A stretch of DNA of 64,000 nt from Helicobacteraceae bacterium (GCA_021163845.1 JAGGTH010000078.1:2607-66606); one strand, 5' to 3'. Positions 46 through 63,863 are shown, counted from the stretch's first letter. Made by a program: numbers and translations. Notes: generated by a model from the sequence alone, not told the origin.

Positions 46-1437
46 TTAAAGATCTTTGATCCCATCAATCAAATCATAAGGTGTCAAAGAAAAACTCGCA
101 CCTTTGAAGTTACATGCGAGTTTTGTGTGTGCGAGGGAAGCGTGAAGTGCTGCATCAAGCGGCGTATATCCTTGCGCTAAAAGTGCTCCGATAAGACCAC
201 CGAGAACATCCCCACTTCCCCCTTTTGCTAGAACCGTCGTACCATGTGGATTGATAAAGAACGCCTCACCTTTGGCGATAATAACATTGGCCCCTTTGAG
301 TAAAAGGGTAACATTTGGAAAGTTTTTGCAAAAAAGTTCTGTATAGTAAAAACGCTGAGATTGGAGTGTCACCACATCGATATCAGCGAGACCCATCAGA
401 CGAAGCAAAGAGACAAACTCCTTGGGATGTGGGGTGATCACAAGTTGTTTTTTCTGTAAGATTTTTAAGATCAAAGGGGTATGAAAAACATCTGCATCCG
501 CAATAAGTGGGAGATCATTGTCTAAAAATTGATCGAGTTCAATATCGCTAAATTCCTCTCCCATCCCCATTCCAAGAGCCAGAGCCGTCGCATTTGATGG
601 GATCTCATGGCTATACATCAAGATCTCAGGTACATGAATGTCTTCAAATCCCACAAGAGTGACAAGCCCCGCACCAAAGCGACTCGCAGCAAGACCACTC
701 AAAATACTCGCGCCCTGCTTTTCTCCACAGATCACGCATAGATGACCAAAACTTCCCTTATGGGTGTTTTGAGCATTTCTCTGTGGAAGTTTCACATCCT
801 CTAGATCGAGTAAGTTCCACTGTGTCTCACCCTCATAAATACTTCGTGAAACTCCAAGGTCTAGTACCTCTATACGCCCTACTTTCTCCTTGGCCTCATC
901 CAAGAACATACGCTTTTTGAGCGCGCCCATGGTCAGTGTTACATCCGCTTCAAAACATCCCTCTGCACACACTCCATTTTTCTGGATTCCTGAGGGGATA
1001 TCACAAGCTATTTTGAACGCATCTATACTGTTGAGCTTCTTCATCAAAGCAAGAAGGTCAGGTGAAAACGCACCATCAAAACCAGTTCCCACAAGCCCAT
1101 CAATAAGGACATCACATTGACAAATATTTTCTACAATAGCTACATCCAAAGCTTTAGCTCGTTTGGCTTGAAGTTGTGCAAGGGGGGATTTTGGCTCTTT
1201 GACGAAAAAGAGAGAGACTTGATAATCTTGGTGAAGAATTCGCGCACAAGCAATAAGATCAGCGCCATTGTTGCCACTTCCACACACAAAAAGGAGTGTG
1301 GATTTTTTTGCAAAATGTGTTTTGATATAAGTAGCGATCCCATTTGCTGCATGTTCCATCAGCAAATCTTCACTCAAGTGAAACTTTTCGTAACACCTTG
1401 TATCGAGCGTGGCTACCTCATCAAAGAGTTTTTGCAT
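46..1437 (-). CDS. nnr: Bifunctional NAD(P)H-hydrate epimerase/dehydratase
   Basis: YjeF N-domain motifs GSGNNGAD and DIPSG; C-domain motifs HKGSFG, ADAD, ITPHPKEF and LAKGGSGDVL. Confidence 0.93.
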   Translation of the reverse strand: MQKLFDEVATLDTRCYEKFHLSEDLLMEHAANGIATYIKTHFAKKSTLLFVCGSGNNGADLIACARILHQDYQVSLFFVKEPKSPLAQLQAKRAKALDVAIVENICQCDVLIDGLVGTGFDGAFSPDLLALMKKLNSIDAFKIACDIPSGIQKNGVCAEGCFEADVTLTMGALKKRMFLDEAKEKVGRIEVLDLGVSRSIYEGETQWNLLDLEDVKLPQRNAQNTHKGSFGHLCVICGEKQGASILSGLAASRFGAGLVTLVGFEDIHVPEILMYSHEIPSNATALALGMGMGEEFSDIELDQFLDNDLPLIADADVFHTPLILKILQKKQLVITPHPKEFVSLLRLMGLADIDVVTLQSQRFYYTELFCKNFPNVTLLLKGANVIIAKGEAFFINPHGTTVLAKGGSGDVLGGLIGALLAQGYTPLDAALHASLAHTKLACNFKGASFSLTPYDLIDGIKDL

Positions 1438-1439
1438 CT

Positions 1440-2192
1440 TTATTGCTCTTGGTACACATACTCATCAACATCGACCATCTTACTTTTGATGTCATTAAAC
1501 AAGAGCGTATGGTAGTCCGTTCTGTATTGATAGAAAAATCTATTCTTAGGCATTTTTTTGAGATCAGCCGTATTAAAATAGTTGAAATTCGTACATTTTC
1601 CTAAAAACAAGAATGTAAATAAAAGCTTGATCTGTGGGCTTTCAAAGATCGTATGTGGCTGTGCCAAGAAAGTCAAACCATACTTTTTGATATTTAAAAA
1701 GTTGAGCATATACAAAAGGAAATCTTCAAATTTTGTATAAAAGCCGTTGAGGCTCTCAATATCGTGGAAGAAATAGTAGTATCCATCGATAAGCTCTTGC
1801 TTTTGCAGGGTTTTTGTAAGGTTACTTCTTACATCCCTTTTTGTTCCAAAATGGCTTGGATCTACCGCCATATAGATATGTTTTTTCTCTGCGATCAATG
1901 CATCAAAAGCGTTTTGAAACTCCTCATTATCTTCAAATCGTATATAGTTAAAATTCTCATCTTTATAACGAAGCTCTATCTCCTCTTCATGAGAGTTTGA
2001 AAAATCCAAGTAGAGTGTAGGCACATCGTTGTCGATGACAAAATTTCTGATCTTACATGCAAGATTTGTCTTTCCAGCTCCTTGTTCAGCGAGGATAAGA
2101 GTGTTTGTTGTAAGCATTCTCGGTTCAATCTTAAGCGTATCGATGCTGCTAATGTATTTCCCTAATATATCTCTCATTATTTTGTTCTCCAC
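1440..2192 (-). CDS. P-loop NTP-binding protein of unknown function
   Basis: Walker A-like AEQGAGKT after a hydrophobic strand; 250 aa; ends 2 bp before nnr starts. Confidence 0.7.
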   Translation of the reverse strand: MENKIMRDILGKYISSIDTLKIEPRMLTTNTLILAEQGAGKTNLACKIRNFVIDNDVPTLYLDFSNSHEEEIELRYKDENFNYIRFEDNEEFQNAFDALIAEKKHIYMAVDPSHFGTKRDVRSNLTKTLQKQELIDGYYYFFHDIESLNGFYTKFEDFLLYMLNFLNIKKYGLTFLAQPHTIFESPQIKLLFTFLFLGKCTNFNYFNTADLKKMPKNRFFYQYRTDYHTLLFNDIKSKMVDVDEYVYQEQ

Positions 2193-2279: not shown

Positions 2280-2831
2280 CTATTGTAACACCTTCACAAT
2301 CGCTTCGGGCATGATCTCATACTCAAGCGTCTTGATCTTTGCTACAAAGCTCTCGTAATCTTGCTCATCTTCACGTACAAAGCTTTTTTGCAAAATGATC
2401 TCTCCCCCATCAAGCTCATTATTAACCCAATGTACACTCACACCACACTCCCTATCACCACTCTCATAGCTCTGTTCTATCGCTTTTGCACCCTTATATT
2501 TTGGAAGCAAAGAGGGGTGAAGATTGATCGAGTTTACTTGGGATGTAAACACCTCTGTGAGAATTCTCATAAAGCCACTGAGTACAACCAGATCAGGTTC
2601 ATAAGACTTTATCAAAGTCACAAGTTCTTCGTCAAAAGCCTCACGCGAAGCAAAGTTGCCATGTTCGAGCACGCGACATTCTACATCCAAAGCTTCTAGT
2701 TTTACGATACCCGGGGCATCTTTTTTGTTTGTGATCCCACACACCACTTCACACTCTTTTTTGTGAAGTTGCTTGACAATATTCTGGGCATTGCTACCCT
2801 CACCACTAAATAAAAGTACGATTTTTTTCAT
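2280..2831 (-). CDS. purN: Phosphoribosylglycinamide formyltransferase
   Basis: LFSGEGSNAQ, VLSGFMRIL, INLHPSLLP, VHWVNNELDGG. Confidence 0.96.
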   Translation of the reverse strand: MKKIVLLFSGEGSNAQNIVKQLHKKECEVVCGITNKKDAPGIVKLEALDVECRVLEHGNFASREAFDEELVTLIKSYEPDLVVLSGFMRILTEVFTSQVNSINLHPSLLPKYKGAKAIEQSYESGDRECGVSVHWVNNELDGGEIILQKSFVREDEQDYESFVAKIKTLEYEIMPEAIVKVLQ

Positions 2832-4426: not shown

Positions 4427-5389
4427 ATGAATTATAAGACAATCGCACAAGAAACACTCGACATCGAAGCACAAACACTTCTTTATGCTGCACAAAACAT
4501 TCACCAAGACTTTGAACATGCTGTAGAGATCATTCTCAACTGTAAAGGTAAACTCATTGTCACAGGTGTTGGCAAAAGTGGACTCATCGGAGCAAAAATG
4601 GCTGCAACTTTCGCTTCTACAGGAACTCCTAGCTTCTTTTTACATCCAACAGAAGCACTTCATGGAGACCTTGGGATGATCGGCAAAGAGGATGTAGTTC
4701 TTGCGATCAGTTATAGTGGCGAAAGCGAAGAACTCAGCTCTATACTCCCTCACATCCAAAGGTTTGAGACCCCTATCATCGGTATGACCCGCAATAGAGA
4801 ATCGACACTTGCAAAGTATAGTGATAGAGTGATCGATCTTCTCGTCAAAAAAGAAGCATGCCCTCTAGATGTCGCGCCAACGAGTTCGACCACGCTTACA
4901 CTCGCTCTTGGGGATGCTCTAGCAGTTTGCCTTATGCGTGCGCGTAACTTTCAAAAGAGTGACTTTGCGTCCTACCACCCAGGTGGAGCTCTTGGAAAAC
5001 GTCTCTTTATCAAGGTCTCAGATCTGATGAAACGCGAAAATATCCCAATGGTGGGTAAAGACACAAGTGTCAAAGATGCAATTTTAGCAATTAGTGAAGG
5101 GCGCATCGGAACTGTACTTATCACCGATGAGGAGCAAAAACTTCTCGCACTTGTGAGTGATGGAGATATCCGTCGCGCACTTATGCGTGAGGATTTTTCT
5201 CTCGATGATGCTGTTTTTCAGTACGCAACGCACCATCCTATGAGTATTGATAATGAAGATATGCTCGCAAGCGAAGCCCTTGTCCTTATAGAAGAAAAAA
5301 AGATTCAGCTACTCGTCGTAACTGATACAAATAAAAAAGTAAAAGGTGTACTTCATATTCATACACTGATAGAAAAAGGGATTTCATGA
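4427..5389 (+). CDS. kdsD: KpsF/GutQ arabinose-5-phosphate isomerase (SIS plus 2 CBS domains)
   Basis: GVGKSG, STGTPSFFLHPTEALHGDLG, APTSSTT, HPGGALG and CBS pair. Confidence 0.93.
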   Translation: MNYKTIAQETLDIEAQTLLYAAQNIHQDFEHAVEIILNCKGKLIVTGVGKSGLIGAKMAATFASTGTPSFFLHPTEALHGDLGMIGKEDVVLAISYSGESEELSSILPHIQRFETPIIGMTRNRESTLAKYSDRVIDLLVKKEACPLDVAPTSSTTLTLALGDALAVCLMRARNFQKSDFASYHPGGALGKRLFIKVSDLMKRENIPMVGKDTSVKDAILAISEGRIGTVLITDEEQKLLALVSDGDIRRALMREDFSLDDAVFQYATHHPMSIDNEDMLASEALVLIEEKKIQLLVVTDTNKKVKGVLHIHTLIEKGIS

Positions 5390-6576: not shown

Positions 6577-7758
6577 TTGGCAGATTTTACCCATCTGCTT
6601 CGCCCCAAATCTTTTGATGCGATAGTGGGGCAAGAGCACCTTACATCCCAAGGCGCTCCTCTTCGTATTCTTTGTGAACAAGGCAATCTTGGGCACTCTT
6701 TTATCTACGGTCCAGCAGGATGCGGCAAAACCTCTTTGGCACGTGTGATCGCTTCTGTTATGGAACTCCCCTTTTATGAATTTAACGCAACATCACTCAA
6801 GATAGAACAGCTTCGCAAGATCTTTGATCAATACAAAAATGCATTGCAAAGACCACTTTTATTTATCGATGAAGTGCACCGTTTGGCAAAGAACCAGCAA
6901 GAGGTGCTTTTGCCTGTGATGGAGAATAATAGTGTCTTGGTGATCGGTGCTTCGACCGAAAATCCTTTCTACTCCCTCACCTCTGCGATCCGCTCACGCT
7001 CGATGCTCTTTGAGGTAAAACATATCAGCAATGATGCACTCCACGCACTCCTAGAGACTACATCCCAAGCTCATAATATCACCATAGATAAAGAAGCAGC
7101 GGAGTATCTCGTGGCAAGTAGTGGTGGCGATGCACGTGCGATGCTCAAGCTCTTAGAGTTTGCAAGCAACCTCTCTTTGGATGTAGATCTCAAGACCCTC
7201 AAATCACTTCGCCCCCATGCTCTGAGTGCTGGAAGTAGCGAAGCGGGAGTGCATTATGACTTAGCCAGTGCGCTTATCAAATCGATTAGAGGGAGTGATG
7301 CAGATGCAGCTATCTATTATCTCGCACGTCTTATTGATGGAGGTGAGAGCGCTGATTTTATCGCACGAAGATTAGTGATACTCGCAAGTGAAGATATCGG
7401 CAATGCCAACCCTCAAGCACTCACACTCACCACATCCGCACTTACATCCGTGAGTAAGATAGGCTACCCAGAAGCGCGTATCATTCTCGCTCAAGCGGTG
7501 ATCTACCTCTGCGCCTCCCCCAAGTCAAATTCCGCCTATATGGCGATCAACTCTGCCTTGCAAGCAGTACATAATGGAGTGATGCTAAATATCCCAAAAA
7601 ATATACAGCACAATAAAGAGAACTATCTCTATCCACACGATTTTGGTGGCTATGTGAAGCAACAATATTTAGAAAAACCCTTGAAGTTTGTAGCGTTTAA
7701 AGAGATCGGTTATGAGAAAAAAATGAAAGAGTGGCTTGAGGCGATACGAGGGATGTAG
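6577..7758 (+). CDS. rarA: Replication-associated recombination protein A (AAA+)
   Basis: GPAGCGKT, LFIDEVHR, GASTENP, LIKSIRGSD, ASEDIGNA, YLYPHD; TTG start. Confidence 0.94.
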   Translation: MADFTHLLRPKSFDAIVGQEHLTSQGAPLRILCEQGNLGHSFIYGPAGCGKTSLARVIASVMELPFYEFNATSLKIEQLRKIFDQYKNALQRPLLFIDEVHRLAKNQQEVLLPVMENNSVLVIGASTENPFYSLTSAIRSRSMLFEVKHISNDALHALLETTSQAHNITIDKEAAEYLVASSGGDARAMLKLLEFASNLSLDVDLKTLKSLRPHALSAGSSEAGVHYDLASALIKSIRGSDADAAIYYLARLIDGGESADFIARRLVILASEDIGNANPQALTLTTSALTSVSKIGYPEARIILAQAVIYLCASPKSNSAYMAINSALQAVHNGVMLNIPKNIQHNKENYLYPHDFGGYVKQQYLEKPLKFVAFKEIGYEKKMKEWLEAIRGM

Positions 7759-12125: not shown

Positions 12126-12153
12126 GTCACAAAATTTATACATGGAGTTCAAA

Positions 12154-23212: not shown

Positions 23213-23292
23213 ACACTCACGAACCTCGTGCAGACTAAAGCCTGTGTAACCAAAGAGATGCTATACTCATTTTATTTTTTAAGGCTCTTTGG

Positions 23293-23691
23293 ATGTATAG
23301 ACTTTTTCTCCTCATTTTACTTCAAACTCTGTTATTCCCCCTTTTTGCGCAGGATTTTTATTATAAACAAAACAAAAAAGTTCTACTCACACCCGTTCAA
23401 GATGTTACGATAGTACTACAACGCTCTTCTGGGATGCAAGGGCTCAAATACTACAAGACTCCAAGAGATGTGATCGTAGGTGTAAGCGATGAGATTCTTT
23501 TACATACACGAGAGATCGATGCAGTTGCGCAAGAGTATGGACTCACACTTATTCAAGAACTCTCTACAAACCTCTATCTCGTACGCTTTAGCGATCAAAA
23601 TAGGACGCTCCAACAAGCCAATAGGGTCCATGAGGACGCGCGTGTAAAATTTGCACATCCTAATTTTTACAAGCAGGTACAAAGACGATGA
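23293..23691 (+). CDS. Secreted small protein resembling a subtilase prodomain or external chaperone
   Basis: Signal peptide; C-terminus V.FAHPNF resembles the end of S8 prodomains; overlaps the start of the S8 gene. Confidence 0.55.
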   Translation: MYRLFLLILLQTLLFPLFAQDFYYKQNKKVLLTPVQDVTIVLQRSSGMQGLKYYKTPRDVIVGVSDEILLHTREIDAVAQEYGLTLIQELSTNLYLVRFSDQNRTLQQANRVHEDARVKFAHPNFYKQVQRR

Positions 23692-30262: not shown

Positions 30263-30776
30263 AGCTATACTCCCCAGTTTTCTCTTTTTTTAGATGACGC
30301 AAAGCATGTGCGTACTCTTTTCTCATCTTTGGTGAAGGGTTCATAAAGATCATAACTGTTCTGTTGATGAGATCAAGCTTTCCTGTAAGCTCACCAAAGC
30401 CACCTTTTGCGTAGATATTGACTGCTACGGGGTTAAAGAGATGATAACTCAACTCCACAGATTCTACATCCAAAGGTACAAATGATTTTGCAGCGTGTGA
30501 GAGCTCTATATTCCTAAGTGTCACACTATTGGTGAATACCCAAGGGCTGATTTTGAGCTGCTCAATATTTGCACTCTCGATCCCCTCAAAATAAACCTTA
30601 GCATCTCGGAGTTCAAGTGAAAAGCCACTATCGTGAAGCTTCTCATTTGAGATCACAATTTTAAGAGGTTCAAGCTGTTTCTCAGCCAAGTAAAAGAGCT
30701 CTACTTTTGGAAGAAAAAAGAGCACCATCGCCAAGAAAAAGAAAAGATATCCAAAAAATTTTGCTATTTTTACCAT
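30246..30776 (-). CDS. GspN-like T2SS accessory protein
   Basis: Single N-terminal transmembrane helix (FFLPK) and operon position. Confidence 0.5.
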   Translation of the reverse strand: MVKIAKFFGYLFFFLAMVLFFLPKVELFYLAEKQLEPLKIVISNEKLHDSGFSLELRDAKVYFEGIESANIEQLKISPWVFTNSVTLRNIELSHAAKSFVPLDVESVELSYHLFNPVAVNIYAKGGFGELTGKLDLINRTVMIFMNPSPKMRKEYAHALRHLKKEKTGEYSYAKDL

Positions 30777-43410: not shown

Positions 43411-43712
43411 GGAAGTGATATTTTTATTTTGAAACTGTACTGTCACCGCTTCAAGTTCAAACACTAAGCTCTCTTGTCCAGTCACACTAGGAGTAATAAA
43501 ACTAGCCGTAGCTTTGTTTACATTGACAAAGATAACATCTGTTCCACTTAACTGTCTCCAGCTATAAGCCAAAGCACCGCTTGCTTGCAACTCAACCATA
43601 TCCTCTGAATATGCTGTGAGATTGGTATCGACTTGAAGTGATTCTTTGCCTGAGCTACATCCCAAGAAGAGAGTTGTTGTTAGAAGTGTAAAAAGAGGTG
43701 AAGAAGTTTCAT
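43411..43712 (-). pseudogene. Frameshifted, truncated paralog of the 41851-43224 lipoprotein
   Basis: ASGALAYSWRQLSG..LVFELEAVT matches the neighbour. ATG at 43712 is out of frame with the LGC lipobox unless one base is added, for example in the A5 run at 43690-43694. Homology stops at repeat copy C. Confidence 0.8.
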
Positions 43713-43746: not shown

Positions 43747-43892
43747 CGAGCATAAACCATCGCTTCCAAAAGAGAAGCAAAGATTCATGACATAAAAGGA
43801 GCCAATGGCTTGCCTTTGGCAGAAAGTGGCTTGGGATGTAGGGCTTTTATGACAGTCAAGAGCGAAGGCAAGCCATCGCGTCCACAAAAGAG
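43747..43892. repeat. REP/BIME-like mosaic, copies D+E (arm R, linker 2, arm L, linker 1, arm R)
   Basis: Degenerate arm 43747-43760; 44 nt; ATGGCTTGCCTTTG 43805-43818; 44 nt; CGAAGGCAAGCCAT 43863-43876. Confidence 0.9.
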
Positions 43893-43905
43893 TGAGGGTA
43901 AGAGC

Positions 43906-45465: not shown

Positions 45466-47136
45466 ATGCGCACACTCTTTCTTTTTTTTCTTTTGCTAAG
45501 CTCTTTGCTTGCAGACCAAGAACTCAAATCTCAGATCGCACGTATGCTCATCTTAGGCTTTGATGAACATACAATAGATGAAAATTCCAAAATCACCAAA
45601 ACACTCCAAAAACACATCCTCGGCGGAGTAATCCTTTTTGATAGATTTTATGATGATCGTGACAAGATAAAAAACATAAGCTCGCCAGAGCAAGTTCGAG
45701 CCCTTACATCCCAGCTTCAAAACTACGCACAAAAAAGACTCTTTATCGCTATCGATCAAGAAGGTGGAAAGGTAGCACGCCTTAAAGAGCGCGATGGCTT
45801 TGCCCCTGCCCCTTCTGCTGCATCACTCAAATCGCAGAGTGCTGCAGAGAGTACAAAAGTGTATGACACCCAATCGCAAATGCTTCAAGACCTAGGAATA
45901 AACCTCAACTTCGCTCCTGTAGTCGATCTCGCCTTAGAGCCAAAAAACAAAGTGATCTACGCCCTAGAACGCTCTTATGGCAAAGAGCCTTTCGATGTAG
46001 CAAAATTTGCCAAGATCATGATCGATGCCCAAGAAAAACACAACATCATCTCGGTGCTCAAACACTTTCCAGGGCATGGCTCTTCGCTAGCAGATTCTCA
46101 CGAGGGCTTTGTTGATATCACCAATACATGGCAAGAAAAAGAGCTCGAACCCTACAAACAGCTGATACAAAACGGTGATGCGCAGATGATTATGAGTGCA
46201 CATGTTTATAACAAAAAGCTCGATGCAAAGTACCCTGCCACTCTTTCCAAAACAATCAATACAAAACTTTTACGCCAACAGCTCGGCTTTAAAGGAGTGC
46301 TTGTAAGTGATGATCTACAAATGAAGGCGATTAGCGAACACTACTCACTCAAAGAGGCTGTGACACTCGCGATCAACTCGGGGGTCGATATGCTCCTCTT
46401 TGGCAATCAACTCGCACACAACAGTGCCGATGAGATCGTAAATACCATCTATGCACAGATAAAGAATGGCTCGATCTCACACGAGCGTATCACCGAGGCT
46501 AACAAGCGCATAGAGCATCTTATCACTGGCTCGCGTATCATCCAAAAGCCTATTACATTCAAGCAAGAACGCATAGAGATGACAAAGCGCTACATCCAAG
46601 AGCACTATGCTTTGGATGTAGAAGATATACAGATCACGCCTAAAGTGATCGTACTGCATTGGACGGCGATCATGGACTTTGAGAAGTGTTTTTCTCTTCT
46701 AGAGCCAGAGCATCTGCTCTCACACCGTAGTGATATCTCAGACGCAGGCGCGCTCAATGTCTCAGCACACTTTTTAGTCAAACGAGATGGCACGATCTAC
46801 CAGCTTATGCCAACTGACTCGATGGCGCGCCATGTAATAGGTCTGAACTACTCAAGTATCGGTATCGAAAATGTCGGCGGTGAGGGAAATGTCAAAGAGG
46901 ATCTCACCCCTGCACAAGTTGAGGCCAATATCGCTTTAGTGAAATACCTCAAACACCAATACCCCCAGATCGAATACCTCATCGGGCACCACGAATATTT
47001 AGAGATGCAAGATTCACCCCTTTGGCTTGAGAAAGACCCAAACTATCGCACTGACAAAGCAGACCCAGGGGAGAGCTTTATGCAAGCGGTGCGCTCAGAG
47101 CTCAAAGCCTTAGAGCTTAAGGGTGTTCGTGAGTAG
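45466..47136 (+). CDS. GH3 beta-N-acetylhexosaminidase (NagZ-like) fused to an Amidase_2 N-acetylmuramoyl-L-alanine amidase; exported
   Basis: Signal peptide; IDQEGG, KHFPGHG and SDDLQM; C-terminal LHWT, SAHFLV.RDG, HVIG.N..SIGIE and GHHE. Confidence 0.9.
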   Translation: MRTLFLFFLLLSSLLADQELKSQIARMLILGFDEHTIDENSKITKTLQKHILGGVILFDRFYDDRDKIKNISSPEQVRALTSQLQNYAQKRLFIAIDQEGGKVARLKERDGFAPAPSAASLKSQSAAESTKVYDTQSQMLQDLGINLNFAPVVDLALEPKNKVIYALERSYGKEPFDVAKFAKIMIDAQEKHNIISVLKHFPGHGSSLADSHEGFVDITNTWQEKELEPYKQLIQNGDAQMIMSAHVYNKKLDAKYPATLSKTINTKLLRQQLGFKGVLVSDDLQMKAISEHYSLKEAVTLAINSGVDMLLFGNQLAHNSADEIVNTIYAQIKNGSISHERITEANKRIEHLITGSRIIQKPITFKQERIEMTKRYIQEHYALDVEDIQITPKVIVLHWTAIMDFEKCFSLLEPEHLLSHRSDISDAGALNVSAHFLVKRDGTIYQLMPTDSMARHVIGLNYSSIGIENVGGEGNVKEDLTPAQVEANIALVKYLKHQYPQIEYLIGHHEYLEMQDSPLWLEKDPNYRTDKADPGESFMQAVRSELKALELKGVRE

Positions 47137-48613
47137 TAGTTTTGCCCCACTTGATTGGCTTGTGTTTGGGCTCTATTTTGCCCTTTTAGCCCTCTCTTCA
47201 TGGTGGCTCTCACGCCATAAGATAAGCTCTTCGCGCGAGTATTTTCTAGGGGGCAACCAGATGGGGATCTTTGCCGTCGCCCTCTCAGTGCTTGCGACAT
47301 CCCAATCAGCCGCGACCTTTTTAGGGGTACCCGAATATGCCTATAAAAATGACTTTAGCTTTATCGGTTTTTATCTCTCAGCACTTCTAGCAGCGCTCTT
47401 TATCGCTTATGTATTGCTCCCAAAGTTTTATGAGCACAAGGTTGTCACCGTCTATGAGCTCCTCGAATCACGCTACGGAGAGAGTGCCAAAAAAAGTGCG
47501 GGGGTGATGTTTTTGCTCGGGCGTATTTTAGCGAGTGGAGCACGTTTGTATATTGGTGCTTTAGCGGTCTCGATGATCCTCTTTTTTGACACCTCCGCTT
47601 CTCATGTCGCGCTCTCAATAAGCCTCTTACTTTTGGGAGCTCTTGCTTATACCTATTTTGGCGGAGTACGCTCAGTGATCCTTAGCGACGTACTTCAAGC
47701 TTTTGTATATATCGGTGCTGGGGTTCTTGTGCTTGTTTATCTCTACTTCTCGCTCAACCACCTCGATATCTTTACTCTCCTCGCAGAGGAGAACAAGCTC
47801 TCTCTTTTTCAAGAGAGTTTTGAAGGCAACTTTAGTATCGCTTCACTTCTCACAGGCTGGCTCTTGCTCAATATCGCCGCTTTTGGACTTGACCAAGATA
47901 TGACACAAAGACTTTTGAGTTGCAAAAACAACAAAGCCGCTGCCAAATCACTCCTGATCTCTATTGCTCTGAGTATCCCTGTGGTGCTTTTGTTTTTATC
48001 TATCGGTGCCCTACTCTATCTTTTTTATGCTCATAGCTCTATTGAGCAAAATTTTGAGGGGCAAAGCATCACCATCTTTATGTACTATATCTTGCACGAG
48101 ATGCCAGAGGGCTTGCGCGGGCTTGTCACCGTAGGTGCGATCGCTGCAGCACTCTCTAGTACCAACTCTGTTTTGGGTGCGATGGCTTCTGTAGCCGTTG
48201 AGGATCTTTATAAGCCCTACATCCAAAGCAAAGGAGATAAAGAGGATAGCCATTTTATCAAAGCCTCACGCTTTGCCGTTTTGGGTTTTGCTCTGATCTT
48301 GGGAGTGATGGCATTGTTGAGCTACTACTGGCAGAAGCACAGCGGTGTGGGGCTTGTCACCTTTGCTCTTGGGGTGATGGCATTTGCGTACACTGGGCTT
48401 TTAGGGGTGTTCTTTGCCGCTCTCTTTAGTAAGCGAGGCAATAGCACCTCGGTACTGTTTGCTCTTTTGGGCGGTTTTTTGACCGTGCTCTTTTTGCAGC
48501 CTTATATTTTTGGGCTCACAATAGGCTACGCGTGGCAGATAGTATTGGGAACCTTAGTTGCTTTTGGTATTGTACTATTAGGAAATAAAGCGAAAGGCAA
48601 GCTTGGGATGTAG
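47123..48613 (+). CDS. Sodium:solute symporter (SSS family)
   Basis: About 13 transmembrane helices; YFLGG, SVLATSQSAATFLG, GLDQDMTQR, AAALSS. Confidence 0.9.
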   Translation: MFVSSSFAPLDWLVFGLYFALLALSSWWLSRHKISSSREYFLGGNQMGIFAVALSVLATSQSAATFLGVPEYAYKNDFSFIGFYLSALLAALFIAYVLLPKFYEHKVVTVYELLESRYGESAKKSAGVMFLLGRILASGARLYIGALAVSMILFFDTSASHVALSISLLLLGALAYTYFGGVRSVILSDVLQAFVYIGAGVLVLVYLYFSLNHLDIFTLLAEENKLSLFQESFEGNFSIASLLTGWLLLNIAAFGLDQDMTQRLLSCKNNKAAAKSLLISIALSIPVVLLFLSIGALLYLFYAHSSIEQNFEGQSITIFMYYILHEMPEGLRGLVTVGAIAAALSSTNSVLGAMASVAVEDLYKPYIQSKGDKEDSHFIKASRFAVLGFALILGVMALLSYYWQKHSGVGLVTFALGVMAFAYTGLLGVFFAALFSKRGNSTSVLFALLGGFLTVLFLQPYIFGLTIGYAWQIVLGTLVAFGIVLLGNKAKGKLGM

Positions 48614-48712: not shown

Positions 48713-48753
48713 GCACGCTGAAATAGCGCAACTTTAATAACAAAAGGGAGAGT

Positions 48754-49830: not shown

Positions 49831-50773
49831 GATCAAGACTTGGCTCGATGGTACTGAGTATAAAGAGTACTCCATCGAAATAGCCTCTGCAGATGCGAGT
49901 TTTCGTAAGTATTATCGGCTGAGGGGAAAAGGTGAGAACACCTTTTTACTTATGGATGCCTCTTTAGAAAAAGAGTCCCTCCATCCCTTTCTAGATGTCA
50001 CCCAAAGGCTCCATAAGGTAGGCGTGCTCGCCCCTCAAATCTACAAGCAAGATCTCCAAGAGGGCTATCTCATCCTAGAAGATTTTGGCGATACCAATCT
50101 CCTTTCACAGCTTACGCAAGAGAGTTTTGAAGCCCTTTACATCCAAGCGATCGAGCAGATCATTTTGATGCAAAAAGCAGATACAAAAGGATTGCCACTC
50201 TATGACAAGGATTTTTTACATTTTGAAATGGATCTCATGGGCGAATGGTACTTGCAAAAACTCTTGGGATGGTGCCTAGATGAAGCGCAACAAAAGCTTT
50301 TAGCGCAAACTCTTGATACTATCAGCGAAGTGGTGCTCTCCCAGCCCCAAGGTGTTTTTGTTCACAGAGACTTTCACTCGCGCAATATTATGCTTACATC
50401 CCAAGGTGCTTTAGGGATCATCGACTATCAAGATGCAATGTGTGGCGCGCTCACTTATGATCTTGTCTCACTGCTCAAAGATTGCTATATCTCTTATGAG
50501 CGTGAGAAGATAGAAAAACTCGCTCTTATCTTTCGTGATAAAAAAGGCTTGGATGTAGCAGATGAAGTGTTTTTAAAATGGTTTGATTTTATGGGACTAC
50601 AACGCCATATCAAAGTACTAGGGATCTTTTCACGCCTTTGGCTTCGTGATGGCAAAGAGGGGTATTTGGGCGATATTCCACTCACCCTCTCTTATGTGCG
50701 AGAGACCGCTTCAAGATACAAAGAGACTGAGGATTTTGCAAAGATGCTAAAGGATCTCACATCAAAGCAATGA
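49823..50773 (+). CDS. amgK: N-acetylmuramate/N-acetylglucosamine anomeric kinase (APH fold)
   Basis: DASFRKYYR, LEDFGD, HRDFHSRNIM, IDYQDA, YDLVSLLKD, GIFSRL..RDGK; directly upstream of murU. Confidence 0.88.
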   Translation: MDKIKTWLDGTEYKEYSIEIASADASFRKYYRLRGKGENTFLLMDASLEKESLHPFLDVTQRLHKVGVLAPQIYKQDLQEGYLILEDFGDTNLLSQLTQESFEALYIQAIEQIILMQKADTKGLPLYDKDFLHFEMDLMGEWYLQKLLGWCLDEAQQKLLAQTLDTISEVVLSQPQGVFVHRDFHSRNIMLTSQGALGIIDYQDAMCGALTYDLVSLLKDCYISYEREKIEKLALIFRDKKGLDVADEVFLKWFDFMGLQRHIKVLGIFSRLWLRDGKEGYLGDIPLTLSYVRETASRYKETEDFAKMLKDLTSKQ

Positions 50774-51417: not shown

Positions 51418-51520
51418 AGAGCCAATGGCTTGCCTTTGGCAGGGAGTGGGCTTGGGATGTAAGGCTTTTATGACAGCTCAGAGCGAAGGCAAGCCATCGC
51501 CTCCTAAAGCGGTAGAGACT
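51418..51520. repeat. REP/BIME-like mosaic, copy G (arm L, linker 1, arm R, part of linker 2)
   Basis: ATGGCTTGCCTTTG 51425-51438; CTTGGGATGT 51451; CGAAGGCAAGCCAT 51484-51497. Confidence 0.9.
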
Positions 51521-54631: not shown

Positions 54632-55451
54632 GAAGCAAACTCTTTAAATATTTTGCCACCGCGTCTTGCTCGTTGCTGTGTTCTAAGATGATCTTTGCTT
54701 TTGCTTTGACACCCTCTTGGGCGTTTGCAACGGCGACTGAGATATTAGCGAGTTCAAACATCCCAAGGTCATTGTAGTTATCCCCAAAAACTGTCAGTTC
54801 TGCAAGATCAAATCCCATATATTCACTCACACTTTGTATCCCGTGCGCCTTGTCTGCATCTTTATGGAGCAAGGTCAAAAAGTAGCACCCAACGTAGGCT
54901 TCAGGAGCTAGGATATATTTGAGTTCATCCCCATAGATCGCTTTGAGATGCTTTTCAAGATCGCGCAGAAGTTGCTCTTCACCCATATAAACAATTTTCA
55001 GATTTTGCTCTGTTGCGCGGAGATTGTCATAGCCTAAGAGTCCATCTGATGTGTCGTAATTTGCAAGCACTTTTATTTGATCTTCATTGAGGATATTAGA
55101 GTGTAAAAAACCCTCATTTAGTTTTGCATCCAACAAAGAGAGCACAAAGGGATAGATCCCAAACTTTGCCCCCTCAGCGATGATGCTATCACCTATTTCT
55201 GCGCTCAACAGCTTTGAATCAATAAGCTCATGTTCATGGGTCGCCACCAAAGCGCCATCAAGCAAGATCATAGGTGCGTTGATATGCACCCCTTGCAAGT
55301 ATTGTTTGGTTCGCTTGAGGCTGCGAGCCGTTGCAACTCCCAAAATAGAATCCTGGGCTTTTGCATTCCAGATAGTTTTAGTATAATCACTTATTGAGAG
55401 ATCATTACGCAAAAATGTGTGGTCAAGGTCTGTAATATAGATTTTTTTCAT
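54624..55451 (-). CDS. HAD-IIB (Cof-type) phosphatase
   Basis: TDLDHT, ATAR, K, and FGDNYNDLGMF motifs. Confidence 0.88.
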   Translation of the reverse strand: MKKIYITDLDHTFLRNDLSISDYTKTIWNAKAQDSILGVATARSLKRTKQYLQGVHINAPMILLDGALVATHEHELIDSKLLSAEIGDSIIAEGAKFGIYPFVLSLLDAKLNEGFLHSNILNEDQIKVLANYDTSDGLLGYDNLRATEQNLKIVYMGEEQLLRDLEKHLKAIYGDELKYILAPEAYVGCYFLTLLHKDADKAHGIQSVSEYMGFDLAELTVFGDNYNDLGMFELANISVAVANAQEGVKAKAKIILEHSNEQDAVAKYLKSLLHV

Positions 55452-60499: not shown

Positions 60500-61323
60500 G
60501 CTCGAACACTCACTGCAATAAAATTTGGATTACTTAGGTCCTCTTTGTTGTATTGCAAGGGAGTGAGCCCTTTTGTTTTTTCACCAAAATACTCACAAGG
60601 GCTCAAGCTCTCATCGTGTACAAATATCTCTCCTCCACTCTCTTGCAAGATCAGATGTGCAGCCGCTGTATCCCACTCCATCGTTAGAGCGAATTTTGGG
60701 TAGATATCGCCCTCACCCTCTGCCATCATACAAAACTTAAGCGAACTTCCAACTGCTTGGTTTGAGACATCTTCTCTACATCCCAAGAGTGCATCGATGA
60801 ACTCTTGCGTTATTGCTGTATGACGCGAGCGAGAGATAAGAGCTATACACTCTTTGTTTTGCTCTTTTTTAGATGAAAGTTTTTGTGGCTGTTTTTGTTC
60901 TTTGTTTTGTTTATACGCACCCACGCCTTTGATCGCATAATAAAGATCTCCAAAAACGGGAGCATAAACAAGCGAAAAGATCGGAGCGCTCTTTTGCATG
61001 AGGGCAACATTGATCGTAAACTCCCCATTTTTATCGACAAACTCTTTGGTCCCATCAATAGGATCGATACACCAATAATACTCCCACTCTTTTCTTTGGA
61101 TATAAGGAATCTGTGCACTCTCTTCAGAGATGATTGGGATGTGGGGATAGAGCTCTTGGAGTTTTGTGCACAAAAAATCATTTGCCGCGAGGTCTGCTTG
61201 GGTGAGTGGGGAGTGATCCTCTTTGTACTCCACACTAAAATCCTCAGCGTAGATCTCCATCACCAAAGAACCCGCCTCAAAGAGTATCTCTTTGAGTCTC
61301 TGTATCTCTAAATCTTTGAGCAT
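60496..61323 (-). CDS. cysQ: 3'(2'),5'-bisphosphate nucleotidase
   Basis: SPLTQAD, ISEE, IDPIDGTKEF, GSSLKFC, EWDTAAA. Start set at MLKD. Confidence 0.92.
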
Positions 61324-61363: not shown

Positions 61364-62059
61364 ATGAAAATAAAATCTATCGCTATTATACCAGCACGTG
61401 GCGGGAGCAAACGTATTCCGCGCAAAAACATCAAAGATTTTCACGGCAAACCGCTTATCGCATACTCGATCGAAACGGCGATAAAAAGCAAGCTCTTTGA
61501 GAGAGTGATTGTGAGTACAGATGATGAGGAGATCGCCCAAGTCGCAAAGAGATATGGAGCAGAAGTGCCCTTTATGCGCCCCCAAGAGCTGAGTGATGAT
61601 TTTACAGGTACAGGTGCTGTCATCTCTCACGCTCTTTCATGGCTCAAAGAAAATGGATTGGAGATCGAATATGCCTGCACCATCTACGCTACCGCTCCTT
61701 TTTTACAAGAGAAGTATCTCAAAGAAGCACTTATGAAACTGCAAAACAGCGATGCAAAATATAGCTTTAGCGCGACAAGTATGCCTTTTCCTATTCAACG
61801 TACTTTTTTTCTTACATCCCAAGGTCGCTGTGAGATGTTTTGGCCCGAGTACTTTGCTAAACGCAGCCAAGATCTTGAGGATGCGTACCAAGATGCAGGG
61901 CAATTCTACTGGAATAAGCTTTCTAAAAAATCTGATTCCATCATCTTTGGCAAAGACTCTATCCCTATCATTTTACCACGCCACCTTGTTCAGGATATAG
62001 ATGATGAGGAGGATTGGAAGCGCGCTGAGATCCTCTATAAGGTAGTTCAAGAACTATGA
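61364..62059 (+). CDS. pseF: Pseudaminic acid cytidylyltransferase
   Basis: IIPARGGSKRIPRKN, STDD, YQDAGQFYW, VQDID. Start set at MKIK. Confidence 0.9.
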   Translation: MKIKSIAIIPARGGSKRIPRKNIKDFHGKPLIAYSIETAIKSKLFERVIVSTDDEEIAQVAKRYGAEVPFMRPQELSDDFTGTGAVISHALSWLKENGLEIEYACTIYATAPFLQEKYLKEALMKLQNSDAKYSFSATSMPFPIQRTFFLTSQGRCEMFWPEYFAKRSQDLEDAYQDAGQFYWNKLSKKSDSIIFGKDSIPIILPRHLVQDIDDEEDWKRAEILYKVVQEL

Positions 62060-62928
62060 ATATTTTAATACGAGCAGATGCTTCATTTCACATAGGAACT
62101 GGGCATATTATGCGTGATCTTGTTTTGGCACAGGAGTTTGCACAAGAGAGTGTTGTCTTTGCGACTCAAAAACTTCGAGGAGACTGCAACCACCTCATAG
62201 AAGAAGCTGGATATGCTATTGAACATCTTTCTTCAAATACCTTTGGCGAGCTCGATACGCTTGTAAAAAAGCTAGATATTGATCTGCTTATCCTCGATCA
62301 TTATGCCCTTAATTACGCCTACGAAAAACAGCTCAAAGCTGCCAATCCAAAGCTCAAACTCATGGTACTCGATGATACGTATGAGCGACACTATTGCGAT
62401 ATTTTGCTTAACCACAATATCTATGCAGACCCAAAACGTTACAAGAGGCTTGTCCCAAAAGGGTGTGAGCTACGATGTGGAGCTAAATATACTCTCTTGC
62501 GTGAAGAGTTTTTAGAACCTAAAAAGATACGTGTTCTGCTTGCAATGGGTGGAGCAGACACACTCTCTCTTACATCCAAAGTACTCAAGATCCTTTTAGA
62601 ATATCCTCATATCAGAGTAGATGTGATAACAACGCGCGCCAATACAAACTTAGAAAAACTTCAAAGTTGTGCAAAAAAGCAAAAAGCTATAAAACTGCAT
62701 ATTGAAACAAAGCAACTTGCTTCCTTGGCGCGAAAAAGCCACTTTGCGATCATTACACCAAGTGTGTTGGCAAATGAGCTTTATAGCATTCATGTCCCTT
62801 TTATCTCGATACAAACAGCCACAAACCAAAAAGAGATGGTGCGTTTTTTGAAAAAAAAGCATTGCAAGGTTTTAAAGCGCTTTAATAGCAAAAAGTTGCA
62901 AAATTTTATCGAAGAGTATTTGCGATGA
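62056..62928 (+). CDS. pseG: UDP-2,4-diacetamido-2,4,6-trideoxy-beta-L-altropyranose hydrolase
   Basis: RAD....IGTGHIMR, LDHY, MVLDD, G.KY.LLREEF, MGGAD. Confidence 0.88.
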   Translation: MNILIRADASFHIGTGHIMRDLVLAQEFAQESVVFATQKLRGDCNHLIEEAGYAIEHLSSNTFGELDTLVKKLDIDLLILDHYALNYAYEKQLKAANPKLKLMVLDDTYERHYCDILLNHNIYADPKRYKRLVPKGCELRCGAKYTLLREEFLEPKKIRVLLAMGGADTLSLTSKVLKILLEYPHIRVDVITTRANTNLEKLQSCAKKQKAIKLHIETKQLASLARKSHFAIITPSVLANELYSIHVPFISIQTATNQKEMVRFLKKKHCKVLKRFNSKKLQNFIEEYLR

Positions 62929-63863
62929 GAGAGGCGATTTTAATCACAAGCATTGGGGCAAAGAGTGCCTTACTCGAGCGTGTTGCAGAGGCACGCGATG
63001 TTTTTGACACTACGCTTCGCATCTTAGGTGCCGATACAGATCTTAGCGCTCTTGGTCGCTATATTGTCGATGAGTTTTGGCATATGCCCCCCTTAAATAT
63101 GCTCTCTTTTGAAGCACTTCTGGCGTATTGTCACAAACATAAGGTGCGCTATATCATCCCTACGCGTGATGGGGAACTGCTTTTTTTTGCCCAACATAAA
63201 AAGCTCTTGGCAGAGCATGATATCTTTGTCTTTGTGTGTGAGAGCGAAGCTATAACACTCTGTTATGACAAGCTCAAGTTTTATCAAGAGGGTGGCAAAG
63301 AGTGGTGTATCCCTACATCCCAAGACCCTCACGCTTTAGACACAAAACGTTATGTTATCAAAGAGCGTTTTGGAGGGGGTGCGGACAATATTGCTTTAGA
63401 TGTAGCCAAAGAGGAGCTTGAAGGCTATGCGAAAAACTTGAATGAAGCGATCTATCAGCCCTACATCCAAGGCAAAGAATATAGTATCGATAGCTATGTT
63501 GATATGCAAGGAAAGTGTCGCGCCTCACTCGTGCGTTCACGTGATAAAGTGATCGATGGAGAATCCAAGATCACTACCGTAGCTACAAAACAAGATCTTG
63601 CCAAAAGAATAGCCAACTTTGTCGAGAAGTTTTCTATTTTGGGGCATTCTGTCACACAGGTGTTAGAGGATCAAGAAGGAAAATACCACCTTATCGAGTG
63701 TAATACCCGTTTTGGCGGGGCATCAACTCTGAGTTATGAACTAGGACTTAAGAGCTTTTTATGGTTCTTCCAAGAGTGTCATAGCAAAGCTCTGGATGTA
63801 AATATCTCTAGCAAAAAACTCACCCAGGTGCGTGTGCAAAAGGATCTCTACTTTGAGAGTTAA
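62925..63863 (+). CDS. ATP-grasp protein (carbamoyl-phosphate-synthase-like fold)
   Basis: IIPTRDGEL, CYDK, VIKERFG, YQPYIQGKEYSID, IECNTRFGG. Confidence 0.85.
   Translation: MREAILITSIGAKSALLERVAEARDVFDTTLRILGADTDLSALGRYIVDEFWHMPPLNMLSFEALLAYCHKHKVRYIIPTRDGELLFFAQHKKLLAEHDIFVFVCESEAITLCYDKLKFYQEGGKEWCIPTSQDPHALDTKRYVIKERFGGGADNIALDVAKEELEGYAKNLNEAIYQPYIQGKEYSIDSYVDMQGKCRASLVRSRDKVIDGESKITTVATKQDLAKRIANFVEKFSILGHSVTQVLEDQEGKYHLIECNTRFGGASTLSYELGLKSFLWFFQECHSKALDVNISSKKLTQVRVQKDLYFES

What the first reader, a model, noticed from the sequence alone, without database searches (positions are those of the whole stretch)
421..63324. Strongly over-represented 10-mer ACATCCCAAG inside genes in several reading frames, behaving like a DNA uptake sequence
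Seen: exact ACATCCCAAG or CTTGGGATGT at 421, 2537, 6643, 7060, 32303, 43657, 43830, 48602, 50396, 51451, 54758, 60778, 61814 and 63315 (14 copies by eye), plus 9-of-10 matches at 24810, 32492, 47297 and 61133. Assuming about 40% GC, roughly 0.1 copy is expected on both strands of 64 kb. Most copies are in coding sequence and read as TSQ, HPK, HIP, LGC or LGM, so codon bias in one frame cannot explain them. They occur on both strands, which argues against a Chi-like site. I saw none in 7.1-24.8 kb or in the 32.5-43.6 kb stretch that holds the cadherin insert. Established: Neisseria DUS and Pasteurellaceae USS show this multi-frame, core-gene-enriched pattern; I know of no such motif in Campylobacterota. 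Inference: an uptake signal, a genome-wide protein-binding site, or a methylation/repair-driven motif like HIP1. It is also the core of linker 1 of the REP-like element. A one-C-shorter variant (ACATCCAA) is common too, e.g. 1142, 2683, 26944, 30466, 46592, 48219, 50139, 63463.
Basis: partly seen in the sequence, partly recalled or inferred. Interest (0 to 1): 0.82.

Follow-up and report, generated by a model that had tools for sequence, protein, structure and literature searches.

The report
Uptake-sequence-like DNA word in Sulfurimonas
This sulfur bacterium (Sulfurimonas) and its sister species carry the short DNA word TACATCC(C/A/G)AAG hundreds of times, while their nearest relatives carry a word one letter different; this is the footprint of the 'self-DNA' uptake tags of Neisseria and Haemophilus, which I found no report of in this phylum, and uptake itself remains untested.

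Summary
ACATCCCAAG occurs 14 times in the window (0.12 expected) and 329 times in the 2.24-Mb genome, where it is the commonest 10-mer.

- **The word:** it is degenerate, YTACATCC[C/A/G]AAGM. ACATCCVAAG has 713 copies (0.32/kb); the core TACATCC has 1,855.
- **Placement:** both strands, all frames, random flanks, no replication or transcription polarity. A synonymous-codon shuffle expects 49 copies in coding DNA; 650 are observed.
- **Distribution:** of 353 Sulfurimonadaceae genomes, only this species and one sister species (89% identity) are rich in it.
- **Conservation:** 92% of sites are kept between the two, against 40% for random 10-mers. The degenerate base drifts freely.
- **Accessory DNA:** the word is about 3-fold depleted there, including the window's 8-43 kb.
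- **Dialect switch:** the nearest outgroups carry ACATGCCA(AG), one base different, at unrelated positions.
- **Cost:** writing the word in changed amino acids.
- **Genes:** ComEC, DprA and type IV pilus genes are present. ComP, Vsr and any recognisable DNA methyltransferase are not.

Best reading: a DNA-uptake-sequence-like self-recognition word, with uptake untested. This scan already noted the same word in another genome and other words in other Sulfurimonas. I found no publication.

The parts
421..430 (-). exact word ACATCCCAAG, inside the YjeF/NAD(P)HX dehydratase-type gene (46-1437, minus)
1142..1151 (+). word variant ACATCCAAAG (A at the degenerate position)
2537..2546 (-). exact word ACATCCCAAG
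2683..2692 (+). word variant ACATCCAAAG
4752..4761 (+). word variant ACATCCAAAG
6643..6652 (+). exact word, inside the rarA/mgsA gene (6577-7758)
7060..7069 (+). exact word, inside the rarA/mgsA gene
7175..7184 (-). word variant ACATCCAAAG, inside rarA/mgsA
19647..19656 (-). word variant ACATCCGAAG; one of the few copies in the variable 8-43 kb stretch (TonB-dependent receptor gene)
23287..23296 (-). word variant ACATCCAAAG, in the variable stretch
30466..30475 (+). word variant ACATCCAAAG, in the T2SS cluster
32303..32312 (+). exact word, in the T2SS cluster
32625..32634 (-). word variant ACATCCAAAG
43168..43177 (+). word variant ACATCCGAAG
43657..43666 (+). exact word
43830..43839 (-). exact word, in the linker of a REP-like intergenic element
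46610..46619 (-). word variant ACATCCAAAG, inside the NagZ-amidase gene (45466-47136)
48219..48228 (+). word variant ACATCCAAAG, inside the SSF symporter gene
48602..48611 (-). exact word, at the start of a REP-like element (48590-48720)
50396..50405 (+). exact word
51451..51460 (-). exact word, in the linker of a REP-like element (51415-51520)
54758..54767 (+). exact word
60778..60787 (+). exact word
61814..61823 (+). exact word
62572..62581 (+). word variant ACATCCAAAG
63315..63324 (+). exact word

Best explanation
The word YTACATCC(C/A/G)AAGM is the recognition sequence of a sequence-specific DNA-binding factor of this Sulfurimonas lineage. Most likely that factor belongs to the type IV pilus / ComEC DNA-uptake route, so the word acts like the DUS of Neisseria or the USS of Haemophilus.

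Proposed mechanism. DNA fragments from close kin that carry the word are taken up preferentially and recombine. Any mutation that creates a word therefore spreads, and any that destroys one is replaced. This is molecular drive, possibly helped by selection. Over time the word accumulates evenly through long-resident (core) DNA, on both strands and in every frame, even at the cost of amino-acid changes. Newly acquired DNA lacks it.

The recognising factor changed specificity on the stem of this two-species clade, from ACATGCCA(AG) to ACATCC(V)AAG. The old word then decayed to background and the new one was written in at new places.

Shown:
- the word, its statistics and its neutrality to strand and frame;
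- its restriction to one small clade;
- above-neutral site conservation with a freely evolving degenerate base;
- depletion in accessory DNA;
- amino-acid cost;
- the one-base dialect relation to the sister clade;
- presence of competence genes.

Inferred: that the factor is part of DNA uptake, and that drive through transformation is the force.
For: - **Abundance.** There are 14 exact copies in the window against 0.12 expected. Genome-wide there are 329, the top 10-mer. ACATCCVAAG has 713 copies with random flanks.
- **Strand and frame.** 337 copies are sense, 313 antisense and 63 intergenic, in all six frames.
- **Shuffles.** The synonymous-codon shuffle expects 49 +/- 7 against 650 observed. 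Of 281 Thr-Ser-(Gln/Lys/Glu)-G contexts, 207 use ACA-TCC against 10.5 expected.
- **No replication polarity.** 54.5% of copies have the G-rich form on the G-rich strand; base composition alone predicts 58-62%. Position along genes is uniform.
- **Clade restriction.** G000 has 560 copies of the 11-mer and sister G303 has 643. All 351 other Sulfurimonadaceae genomes have 11 or fewer.
- **Site conservation.** G000 and G303 are 89.2% identical over 559 kb. They share 199 sites, with 17 and 53 private ones. 92% of G000 sites are kept, against 40% of random 10-column windows. Per-column identity is 0.97-1.00 at the fixed bases but 0.91 (background) at the degenerate base. Core-only TACATCC sites are also kept more often than background, 79% against 50%.
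- **Accessory depletion.** Density is 0.45/kb in DNA shared with G000 and 0.16/kb in unshared DNA (p=1.6e-8). The window's sparse 8-43 kb is variable DNA.
- **Dialects.** The nearest relatives G336, G280 and G302 carry ACATGCCA 904-1,820 times; G000 has 46 and G303 has 37, which is background. G336's top 10-mer, ACATGCCAAG, differs from ACATCCCAAG by one base. In the RarA tree (G000+G303) is sister to the ACATGCCAAG pair with 98/96 support, and both sit next to a CCACATGCC clade.
- **Independent sites.** None of 70 G000 sites and none of 162 G336 sites coincide.
- **Cost.** At word sites there are 3.89 mismatches to G336 per 10 columns against 2.93 elsewhere. Amino-acid differences are 44.7% in word codons, about 27.5% at 16-150 nt away, and 23.5% further away.
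- **Machinery.** ComEC, DprA, PilB-like and two PilT-like ATPases, and major and minor pilin genes are present.
Against: - No uptake or transformation data exist for this organism. I found no report of natural competence or uptake sequences in Sulfurimonas.
- There is no homologue of the only known uptake-sequence receptor, ComP (PF16732).
- ComEC, DprA and pilus genes are also present in relatives that lack these words, so their presence is weak support.
- The pilus-tip (PilY1-like) locus is only 40% identical between the two species that share the word. It is widespread in the genus regardless of word class, so it does not look like the specificity determinant.
- Inverted word pairs at terminators, common for the neisserial DUS, are rare here (26 close pairs of 713).
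- Every sequence pattern found would also follow from any other sequence-specific process that favours the word in resident DNA.
Confidence: 0.5

Rival explanations
1. The word is the binding or recognition site of a cellular protein that has nothing to do with DNA uptake. Examples would be a recombination/repair factor that works in either orientation, a nucleoid-organising protein, or a self/non-self discriminator of a defence system. The word would then be kept by ordinary selection on the chromosome.
For: - Site conservation is far above neutral, and the degenerate base is unconstrained, as expected for a protein-DNA interface.
- Lineage-specific dialects imply an evolving recognising factor.
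- No uptake receptor homologue was found.
Against: - Known chromosome-function words (Chi, KOPS) are polar with replication; this one is not.
- A housekeeping role is hard to square with 351 of 353 relatives lacking the word, many close relatives carrying quite different words, and complete turnover of sites between sister clades.
- Roughly 700-1,900 sites, mostly inside genes and at the cost of amino-acid changes, is unlike any known architectural site.
Confidence: 0.22
2. The word is a by-product of a biased mutation, short-patch repair or gene-conversion process that turns near-matches into the word. It would have no function of its own.
For: - The word is written in by substitutions, not insertions. 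Divergence from the outgroup is raised at the sites.
- Synonymous positions inside the word are fixed.
- HIP1 of cyanobacteria and CCWGG in E. coli are the precedents usually cited for such processes (my own knowledge).
Against: - No Vsr endonuclease is present in G000, G303 or three other relatives.
- No C5 or N6/N4 DNA methylase match and no DPPY- or PCQ-type motif was found in G000.
- An 11-13-base specificity is much longer than any known short-patch repair context.
- One-off neighbours of the word are not depleted where the null model is fair; those at the 3' AAG and at positions 0-1 are enriched 1.5-6 fold.
- Accessory DNA resident in the same cell is poor in the word. This fits slow accumulation, but a cell-wide repair bias should act on accessory DNA too.
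Confidence: 0.12
3. The word is the target of a DNA methyltransferase. It is enriched either as in HIP1-type motifs or because methylated sites mark self DNA for uptake, as RAATTY/CtsM does in Campylobacter jejuni.
For: - The word contains GGATG/CATCC, and the sister dialects contain CATG. Both are common methylase targets (my own knowledge).
- Methylation-dependent uptake is the only DNA discrimination known in this phylum (my own knowledge of Beauchamp et al. 2017; not read here).
Against: - G000 (99.9% complete) gave no match to PF01555 or PF00145.
- A scan of every open frame of 150 aa or more for [DNS]PP[YFWH] or PCQxFS found only PrmC, a small tRNA/rRNA-type methylase, and non-methylases.
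- G303's two DNA methylases lie on an accessory contig absent from G000.
- Eleven to thirteen specified bases is longer than typical methylase sites.
Confidence: 0.06
4. The enrichment is an artefact of codon or amino-acid usage, or consists of remnants of the REP-like repeat or another mobile element.
For: - Two frames are preferred: TS(Q/K/E) on one strand and x(L/S/W)DV on the other.
- Three window copies lie in the REP-like element.
Against: - Codon-preserving shuffles expect 49 or 11.5 copies against 650 observed.
- Both orientations and all frames are used.
- Flanks are random.
- Only 20 of 713 copies are near REP-like arms.
- Relatives with similar codon usage lack the word.
Confidence: 0.02

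Closest known systems
DNA uptake sequence (DUS) of Neisseriaceae and its dialects, read by the minor pilin ComP (Frye et al. 2013, PMC3630211; Berry et al. 2013, PMC3868556; Treangen et al. 2008, PMC2397512; found, titles and abstracts only)
   Same: - Both are non-palindromic words of 10-13 bases at about 0.3-0.8 per kb.
- Both lie on both strands and inside genes.
- Both are enriched in core DNA.
- Both have lineage-specific dialects that differ by one or a few bases and follow phylogeny.
- Both occur alongside type IV pilus and ComEC/DprA genes.
   Different: - The sequence is unrelated.
- The phylum is different (Campylobacterota).
- No ComP_DUS homologue is present.
- Few inverted pairs occur at terminators.
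- Most species of the genus lack this word family or carry quite different words.
- Uptake is untested.
Uptake signal sequence (USS) of Pasteurellaceae (Mell et al. 2012, PMC3458573; found)
   Same: - Both are mostly intragenic, with preferred reading frames that encode tolerable peptides.
- Both have a strong core with softer edge positions.
- One-off variants are enriched in both.
- In both the receptor is unknown.
   Different: - No helically phased AT-rich flanks are seen.
- The sequence is different.
- The clade is much narrower (two species).
HIP1 (GCGATCGC) and other highly iterated palindromes of cyanobacteria
   Same: Both are hyper-abundant short words in coding and non-coding DNA, kept above neutral expectation, with unknown function.
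   Different: - This word is not a palindrome.
- No cognate DNA methylase can be recognised in G000.
Chi and KOPS (polar chromosomal words read by RecBCD/AddAB and FtsK)
   Same: Both are over-represented, lineage-specific short words read by a protein.
   Different: Chi and KOPS are strongly co-oriented with replication. This word shows no polarity beyond base composition.
Methylation-dependent DNA discrimination in Campylobacter jejuni transformation (RAATTY / CtsM)
   Same: Both are in the same phylum, and both involve self-DNA discrimination at uptake.
   Different: The Campylobacter mark is a methylated 6-mer and is not a hyper-abundant long word. G000 has no recognisable DNA methylase.

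Membership tests
DUS (Neisseriaceae-type uptake sequence) | Short non-palindromic word, hundreds to thousands of copies, both strands, far above codon-aware expectation | tested here: met
   713 copies (0.32/kb). 650 are in CDS against 49 expected from the synonymous shuffle.
DUS (Neisseriaceae-type uptake sequence) | Sequence GCCGTCTGAA or a dialect sharing its CTG core | tested here: not met
   The word is TACATCCVAAG.
DUS (Neisseriaceae-type uptake sequence) | Cognate receptor: minor pilin ComP (Pfam ComP_DUS, PF16732) | tested here: not met
   No match over the cut-off in G000, G303 or three relatives.
DUS (Neisseriaceae-type uptake sequence) | Dialects that differ by one or a few bases and follow phylogeny | tested here: met
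   The words are ACATCCVAAG (G000/G303), ACATGCCAAG (G336, L001) and CCACATGCC (further clade).
DUS (Neisseriaceae-type uptake sequence) | Enriched in core genome, poor in recently acquired DNA | tested here: met
   0.45/kb against 0.16/kb, p=1.6e-8. The window's 8-43 kb is sparse.
DUS (Neisseriaceae-type uptake sequence) | Frequent inverted pairs forming terminators | tested here: not met
   26 pairs closer than 60 bp among 713 copies. 9% of copies are intergenic.
DUS / USS (any uptake sequence) | Presence of the word increases DNA uptake and transformation | not testable with these tools
USS (Pasteurellaceae) | Core followed by helically phased AT-rich tracts | tested here: not met
   Flank composition is near genome average beyond positions -2 and +1.
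USS (Pasteurellaceae) | Mostly intragenic, with frame preferences and a cost to the proteome | tested here: met
   91% of copies are in ORFs. Two frames are favoured. Amino-acid differences are 44.7% in word codons against 23.5-27.5% elsewhere.
HIP1-type highly iterated palindrome | Palindromic word | tested here: not met
   TACATCCVAAG is not its own reverse complement.
HIP1-type highly iterated palindrome | Cognate DNA methyltransferase(s) in the genome | tested here: not met
   No PF01555 or PF00145 match and no DPPY/PCQ-type DNA methylase in G000. PF02384 and PF02086 were covered only by the motif scan.
Chi / KOPS polar words | Strong co-orientation with replication (GC skew) | tested here: not met
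   54.5% observed against 58-62% expected from composition alone.
REP/BIME or MITE remnants | Copies share flanking sequence or hairpin arms and lie between genes | tested here: not met
   Flanks are random. Only 20 of 713 copies lie within 80 bp of REP-like arms.
VSP-repair-driven word (Vsr + Dcm type) | Vsr endonuclease and a C5 methylase present | tested here: not met
   No PF03852 match in five genomes. No PF00145 match in G000.

The most novel reading that the evidence does not exclude
Sulfurimonas (phylum Campylobacterota) has a so far undescribed self-DNA recognition system that works like the DUS/USS systems but has a different, unknown receptor. Its specificity changes quickly between lineages. 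This genome and its sister species record a clean switch from ACATGCCA(AG) to ACATCC(V)AAG, in which the old word was completely erased and about 700-1,900 new sites were written in. That gives a natural experiment for finding the receptor and for measuring how fast uptake-driven molecular drive rewrites a genome.
Probability: 0.45. Interest if true: 0.85.

Novelty: new variant of a known kind. Interest (0 to 1): 0.74.

Why it matters
As far as I know, sequence-specific DNA uptake has been described in only two bacterial families, and its receptor is known in only one. A third, independent case in a different phylum would make several things directly testable:

- how uptake specificity evolves;
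- how fast molecular drive can overwrite coding sequence;
- which protein reads the word.

The case here has many lineage-specific words and a one-base dialect switch between sister clades.

The result also has a practical side. The word is a species-level barcode for binning and tracking these abundant sulfur oxidisers. Adding the right word to donor DNA might make Sulfurimonas genetically tractable.

If uptake is not the function, a protein-read word maintained at about 1 per kb inside genes, at amino-acid cost, would still be an unexplained genome-wide constraint.

Tried and rejected
1. **Whole-stretch DNA search against G303.** Searching window 44-64 kb against G303 returned only about 100-bp REP-like repeats. 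The protein search and fetched contigs then showed that G303 is a true sister at 89% identity. That DNA search was therefore uninformative.
2. **Inherited sites across the dialect switch.** I looked for positions holding ACATGCCAAG in G336 and ACATCCCAAG in G000. None of the 70 and 162 sites coincide. The 'sites converted in place' idea is rejected.
3. **ComP_DUS receptor.** None was found.
4. **Vsr.** None was found.
5. **DNA methylases.** None is recognisable in G000.
6. **PilY1-like pilus-tip protein as a marker.** It is present in 157 of 194 species regardless of word class, and is only 40% identical between G000 and G303. It is rejected as the determinant.
7. **One-off neighbour depletion as a test of biased repair.** The apparent depletion at word positions 2 and 5 is produced by the null model: the synonymous shuffle of real TSQ sites creates those neighbours. 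It is not evidence.
8. **Maximal-order Markov expectation.** It is self-contaminated by the word and uninformative.
10. **Polarising private sites into gains and losses.** Not done, because too few sites were covered by the outgroup sample.

Full report
**Observation.** Dinucleotide-preserving shuffles of the window expect 0.12.

The window is C3:2607-66606 of a 2.24-Mb, 113-contig assembly with 39.2% G+C. Genome-wide the word occurs 329 times and is the most frequent of all 10-mers.

**The real word.** Single-base scans and a logo show that the seventh base is degenerate: C 44%, A 35%, G 17%, T 2%. The word also extends outward, giving Y-T-ACATCC-V-AAG-M. Beyond that the flanks have genome-average composition.

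- ACATCCVAAG has 713 copies (0.32 per kb).
- The 5' core TACATCC has 1,855 copies (0.83 per kb). An order-3 Markov model expects about 324, and the synonymous shuffle expects about 361 in coding DNA.

True one-base-shorter forms are a minority: TACATCCAAG has 77 copies, 61 of them not followed by A.

**More than codon bias or a repeat.** I used a crude ORF set: the longest non-overlapping ORFs of 100 aa or more, 2,004 in all.

- 337 copies are on the coding strand, 313 on the template strand and 63 between ORFs. All six frames are used. Two are preferred, reading T-S-(Q/K/E) and x-(L/S/W)-D-V.
- Permuting synonymous codons within each gene expects 49 +/- 7 copies against 650 observed. Permuting codon order expects 11.5.
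- Among 281 Thr-Ser-(Gln/Lys/Glu)-G contexts, 207 use ACA-TCC, although codon usage predicts 10.5.
- Copies are spread uniformly along genes, and 10-kb bins are near-Poisson (mean 3.2, variance 4.3).
- Only 20 of 713 copies lie within 80 bp of the arms of the REP-like element (59 arms genome-wide). Three window copies (43830, 48602, 51451) do sit in that element's linker.

**No polarity.** In windows with |GC skew| of at least 0.05, the G-rich form lies on the G-rich strand in 54.5% of cases. The word's own base composition predicts 58-62%. Transcription strand is also neutral. This rules out Chi- or KOPS-like words and any RNA-level role.

**Who has it.** A RarA/MgsA search names the organism as a Sulfurimonas. 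A scan of 353 Sulfurimonadaceae species genomes with TACATCCVAAG gave 560 copies in this genome (G000), 643 in one other species (G303) and at most 11 in each of the other 351. None of 52 fetched Sulfurimonadaceae loci has more than two copies.

G303 is the sister species. RarA is 98% identical, and 559 kb of fetched G303 DNA aligns at 89.2% identity.

**The sites are maintained.**

- In that alignment 199 sites are shared column for column, 17 are private to G000 and 53 to G303.
- 92% of G000 sites are intact in G303, whereas 40% of random 10-column windows are identical.
- Per-column identity is 0.97-1.00 at the nine fixed bases and 0.91 at the degenerate base. That equals the background, and the flanks run at 0.78-0.93.
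- Core-only TACATCC sites are kept in 79% of cases against 50% background.

Constraint therefore follows the logo base by base, including at synonymous positions. This shows a sequence-specific force acting since the split.

**Core versus accessory.**

- G303 DNA that aligns to G000 carries 0.45 words per kb. Unaligned DNA carries 0.16 per kb (p=1.6e-8). Unaligned blocks of 4 kb or more hold 6 words in 72 kb.
- In the window, 20 copies lie in 1-8 kb plus 43-64 kb (0.69/kb) and 6 in 8-43 kb (0.17/kb).
- That sparse stretch is variable DNA. Its TonB-dependent receptor is only 50% identical in the sister species and absent from four other relatives. Its secretin is 84% identical.

**Dialects.** By RarA identity the next relatives are G336, G280 and G302 (84%).

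- A 335-kb sample of G336 has almost none of this word (6 copies). It has its own top word, ACATGCCA (277 copies, 0.83/kb), and its top 10-mer, ACATGCCAAG, is one base away from ACATCCCAAG.
- Genus-wide, ACATGCCA is hyper-abundant in about 28 of 194 species. These include G336 (1,820), G280 (1,248) and G302 (904), and a further clade whose extended word is CCACATGCC/GGCATGTGGA (up to about 1,300 copies). G000 (46) and G303 (37) are at background.
- In a RarA maximum-likelihood tree, (G000+G303) is sister to the ACATGCCAAG pair (L001+G336) with 98/96 support. That group sits beside a CCACATGCC clade with 81/85 support.
- By parsimony ACATGCC is ancestral and ACATCC derived. This rests on a single-gene tree.
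- Other lineages carry unrelated words. For example, there are 25 AAACGCAG in the 21-kb locus L018, and TACATGTA occurs in L019 and L032-L034. This agrees with earlier notes of this scan.

**Sites turned over completely.** Over 196 kb aligned between G000 and G336 (70.8% identity), none of 70 G000 sites is a word in G336 and none of 162 G336 sites is a word in G000. At G000 sites the divergence from G336 is higher than elsewhere: 3.89 against 2.93 mismatches per 10 columns (p=3e-6).

Amino-acid differences by distance from the word:

| Distance from word | Amino-acid differences |
|---|---|
| word codons | 44.7% |
| 5-15 nt | 34% |
| 16-150 nt | about 27.5% |
| more than 150 nt | 23.5% |

So the word was written in by substitutions that changed proteins, in gene segments that are only slightly more tolerant than average.

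**Machinery.**

- G000, G303 and G336 each have a short Campylobacterota-type ComEC. In G000 it lies next to an intein-bearing dnaB.
- They have DprA and a PilB-like and two PilT-like ATPases beside GspE.
- G000 has three tandem major-pilin genes, a minor-pilin operon behind a 1,254-aa PilY1-like gene, and further pilin-like genes.
- The window itself holds a T2SS cluster.
- There is no ComP_DUS homologue.
- The PilY1-like protein is in 157 of 194 species whatever their word, and is only 40% identical between G000 and G303. It is not the determinant.

**Methylation and repair.**

- No Vsr is found in five genomes.
- G000 gives no PF01555 or PF00145 match.
- A scan of all open frames of 150 aa or more for DPPY-type or PCQxFS motifs finds only PrmC, a small tRNA/rRNA-type methylase, and unrelated enzymes.
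- G303's two DNA methylases lie on an accessory contig that G000 lacks.

A methylase-linked or VSP-like origin is therefore unlikely. Two caveats apply: the assembly is fragmented, and two methylase families were covered only by the motif scan.

**Interpretation.** The data show a protein-read word that is actively maintained, accumulates with residence time, costs amino-acid changes, is neutral to strand and frame, and changes 'dialect' between sister clades. This is the combination described for the neisserial DUS and its dialects and for the Pasteurellaceae USS (PMC3630211, PMC3868556, PMC2397512, PMC3458573).

I therefore favour an uptake-sequence-like signal spread by preferential uptake and recombination (confidence 0.5). 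The link to uptake is inferred, not shown. A non-uptake binding site (0.22), a function-less biased repair or conversion process (0.12) and a methylation-linked word (0.06) remain.

It is not a member of the DUS family proper, because the sequence and the receptor differ.

**Known or new.** I found no paper containing these words in a bacterial context. I also found none joining uptake sequences with Sulfurimonas or reporting one in Campylobacterota. This scan had already followed up the same word in another genome, and other words in other Sulfurimonas. Those were leads, and I tested them here.

- the base-by-base conservation profile;
- the accessory-DNA depletion;
- the one-base dialect switch, placed on a tree and with complete site turnover;
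- the amino-acid cost gradient;
- the absence of any recognisable DNA methylase.

**Limits.**

- The ORF calls are crude.
- Only 714 kb of G303 and 335 kb of G336 were sampled.
- The phylogeny rests on one protein.

Noticed in passing
window 48590-48720, 51415-51520, 43340-43900, 2233-2266: A REP/BIME-like intergenic element with arms GAAGGCAAGCCATCG / CGATGGCTTGCCTTC. G000 has 59 arms genome-wide. The element is also present in many copies in sister species G303, where it gave the only hits of the whole-stretch DNA search. One of its linkers carries the word.
   Followed up: partly
window 12325-13596: Two 300-nt stretches 972 bp apart are 100% identical inside one 703-aa ORF (12142-14253). 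This is a perfect recent intragenic duplication (repeat finder D5).
   Followed up: no
window 34300-36800: There are about 11-12 tandem 132-bp repeats (60-82% identical) inside the 2,519-aa gene, so the giant surface protein has a repeat array. The gene and its surroundings carry no copy of the word.
   Followed up: no
window 56941-58356: The flagellar cap gene fliD has no match at E<=1e-20 in sister species G303 (89% genome identity). It is 62% identical in the more distant G336. This points to a replaced or missing, highly variable flagellar locus.
   Followed up: no
window 19271-22438: The TonB-dependent receptor is only 50% identical in the sister species and absent from four other relatives. 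The 8-43 kb stretch behaves as a variable island.
   Followed up: partly
L160:96-2480 (G000 contig C15): The replicative helicase DnaB carries an intein with Hint and LAGLIDADG homing-endonuclease domains. The short comEC gene follows directly.
   Followed up: no
L161:647-4411 (G000 contig C14): A 1,254-aa PilY1-like gene lies ahead of a minor-pilin operon. It is only 40% identical between G000 and G303 but 49% identical to more distant species. The pilus-tip locus looks horizontally exchanged.
   Followed up: partly
G000 whole genome: No recognisable DNA methyltransferase and no Vsr is present in a 99.9%-complete genome. Relatives have one to five methylases. By my own recollection, many members of this phylum, such as Helicobacter, are rich in restriction-modification systems.
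   Followed up: partly
G000 contig C39:6000-16000 (L162); contig C74:1384-3099 (L170): A second T2SS-like cluster (GspE-like ATPase, GspG-like pseudopilins, weak secretin match) has no counterpart in G303 or G336. A TrwB/TraG-type coupling protein points to a conjugative element.
   Followed up: no
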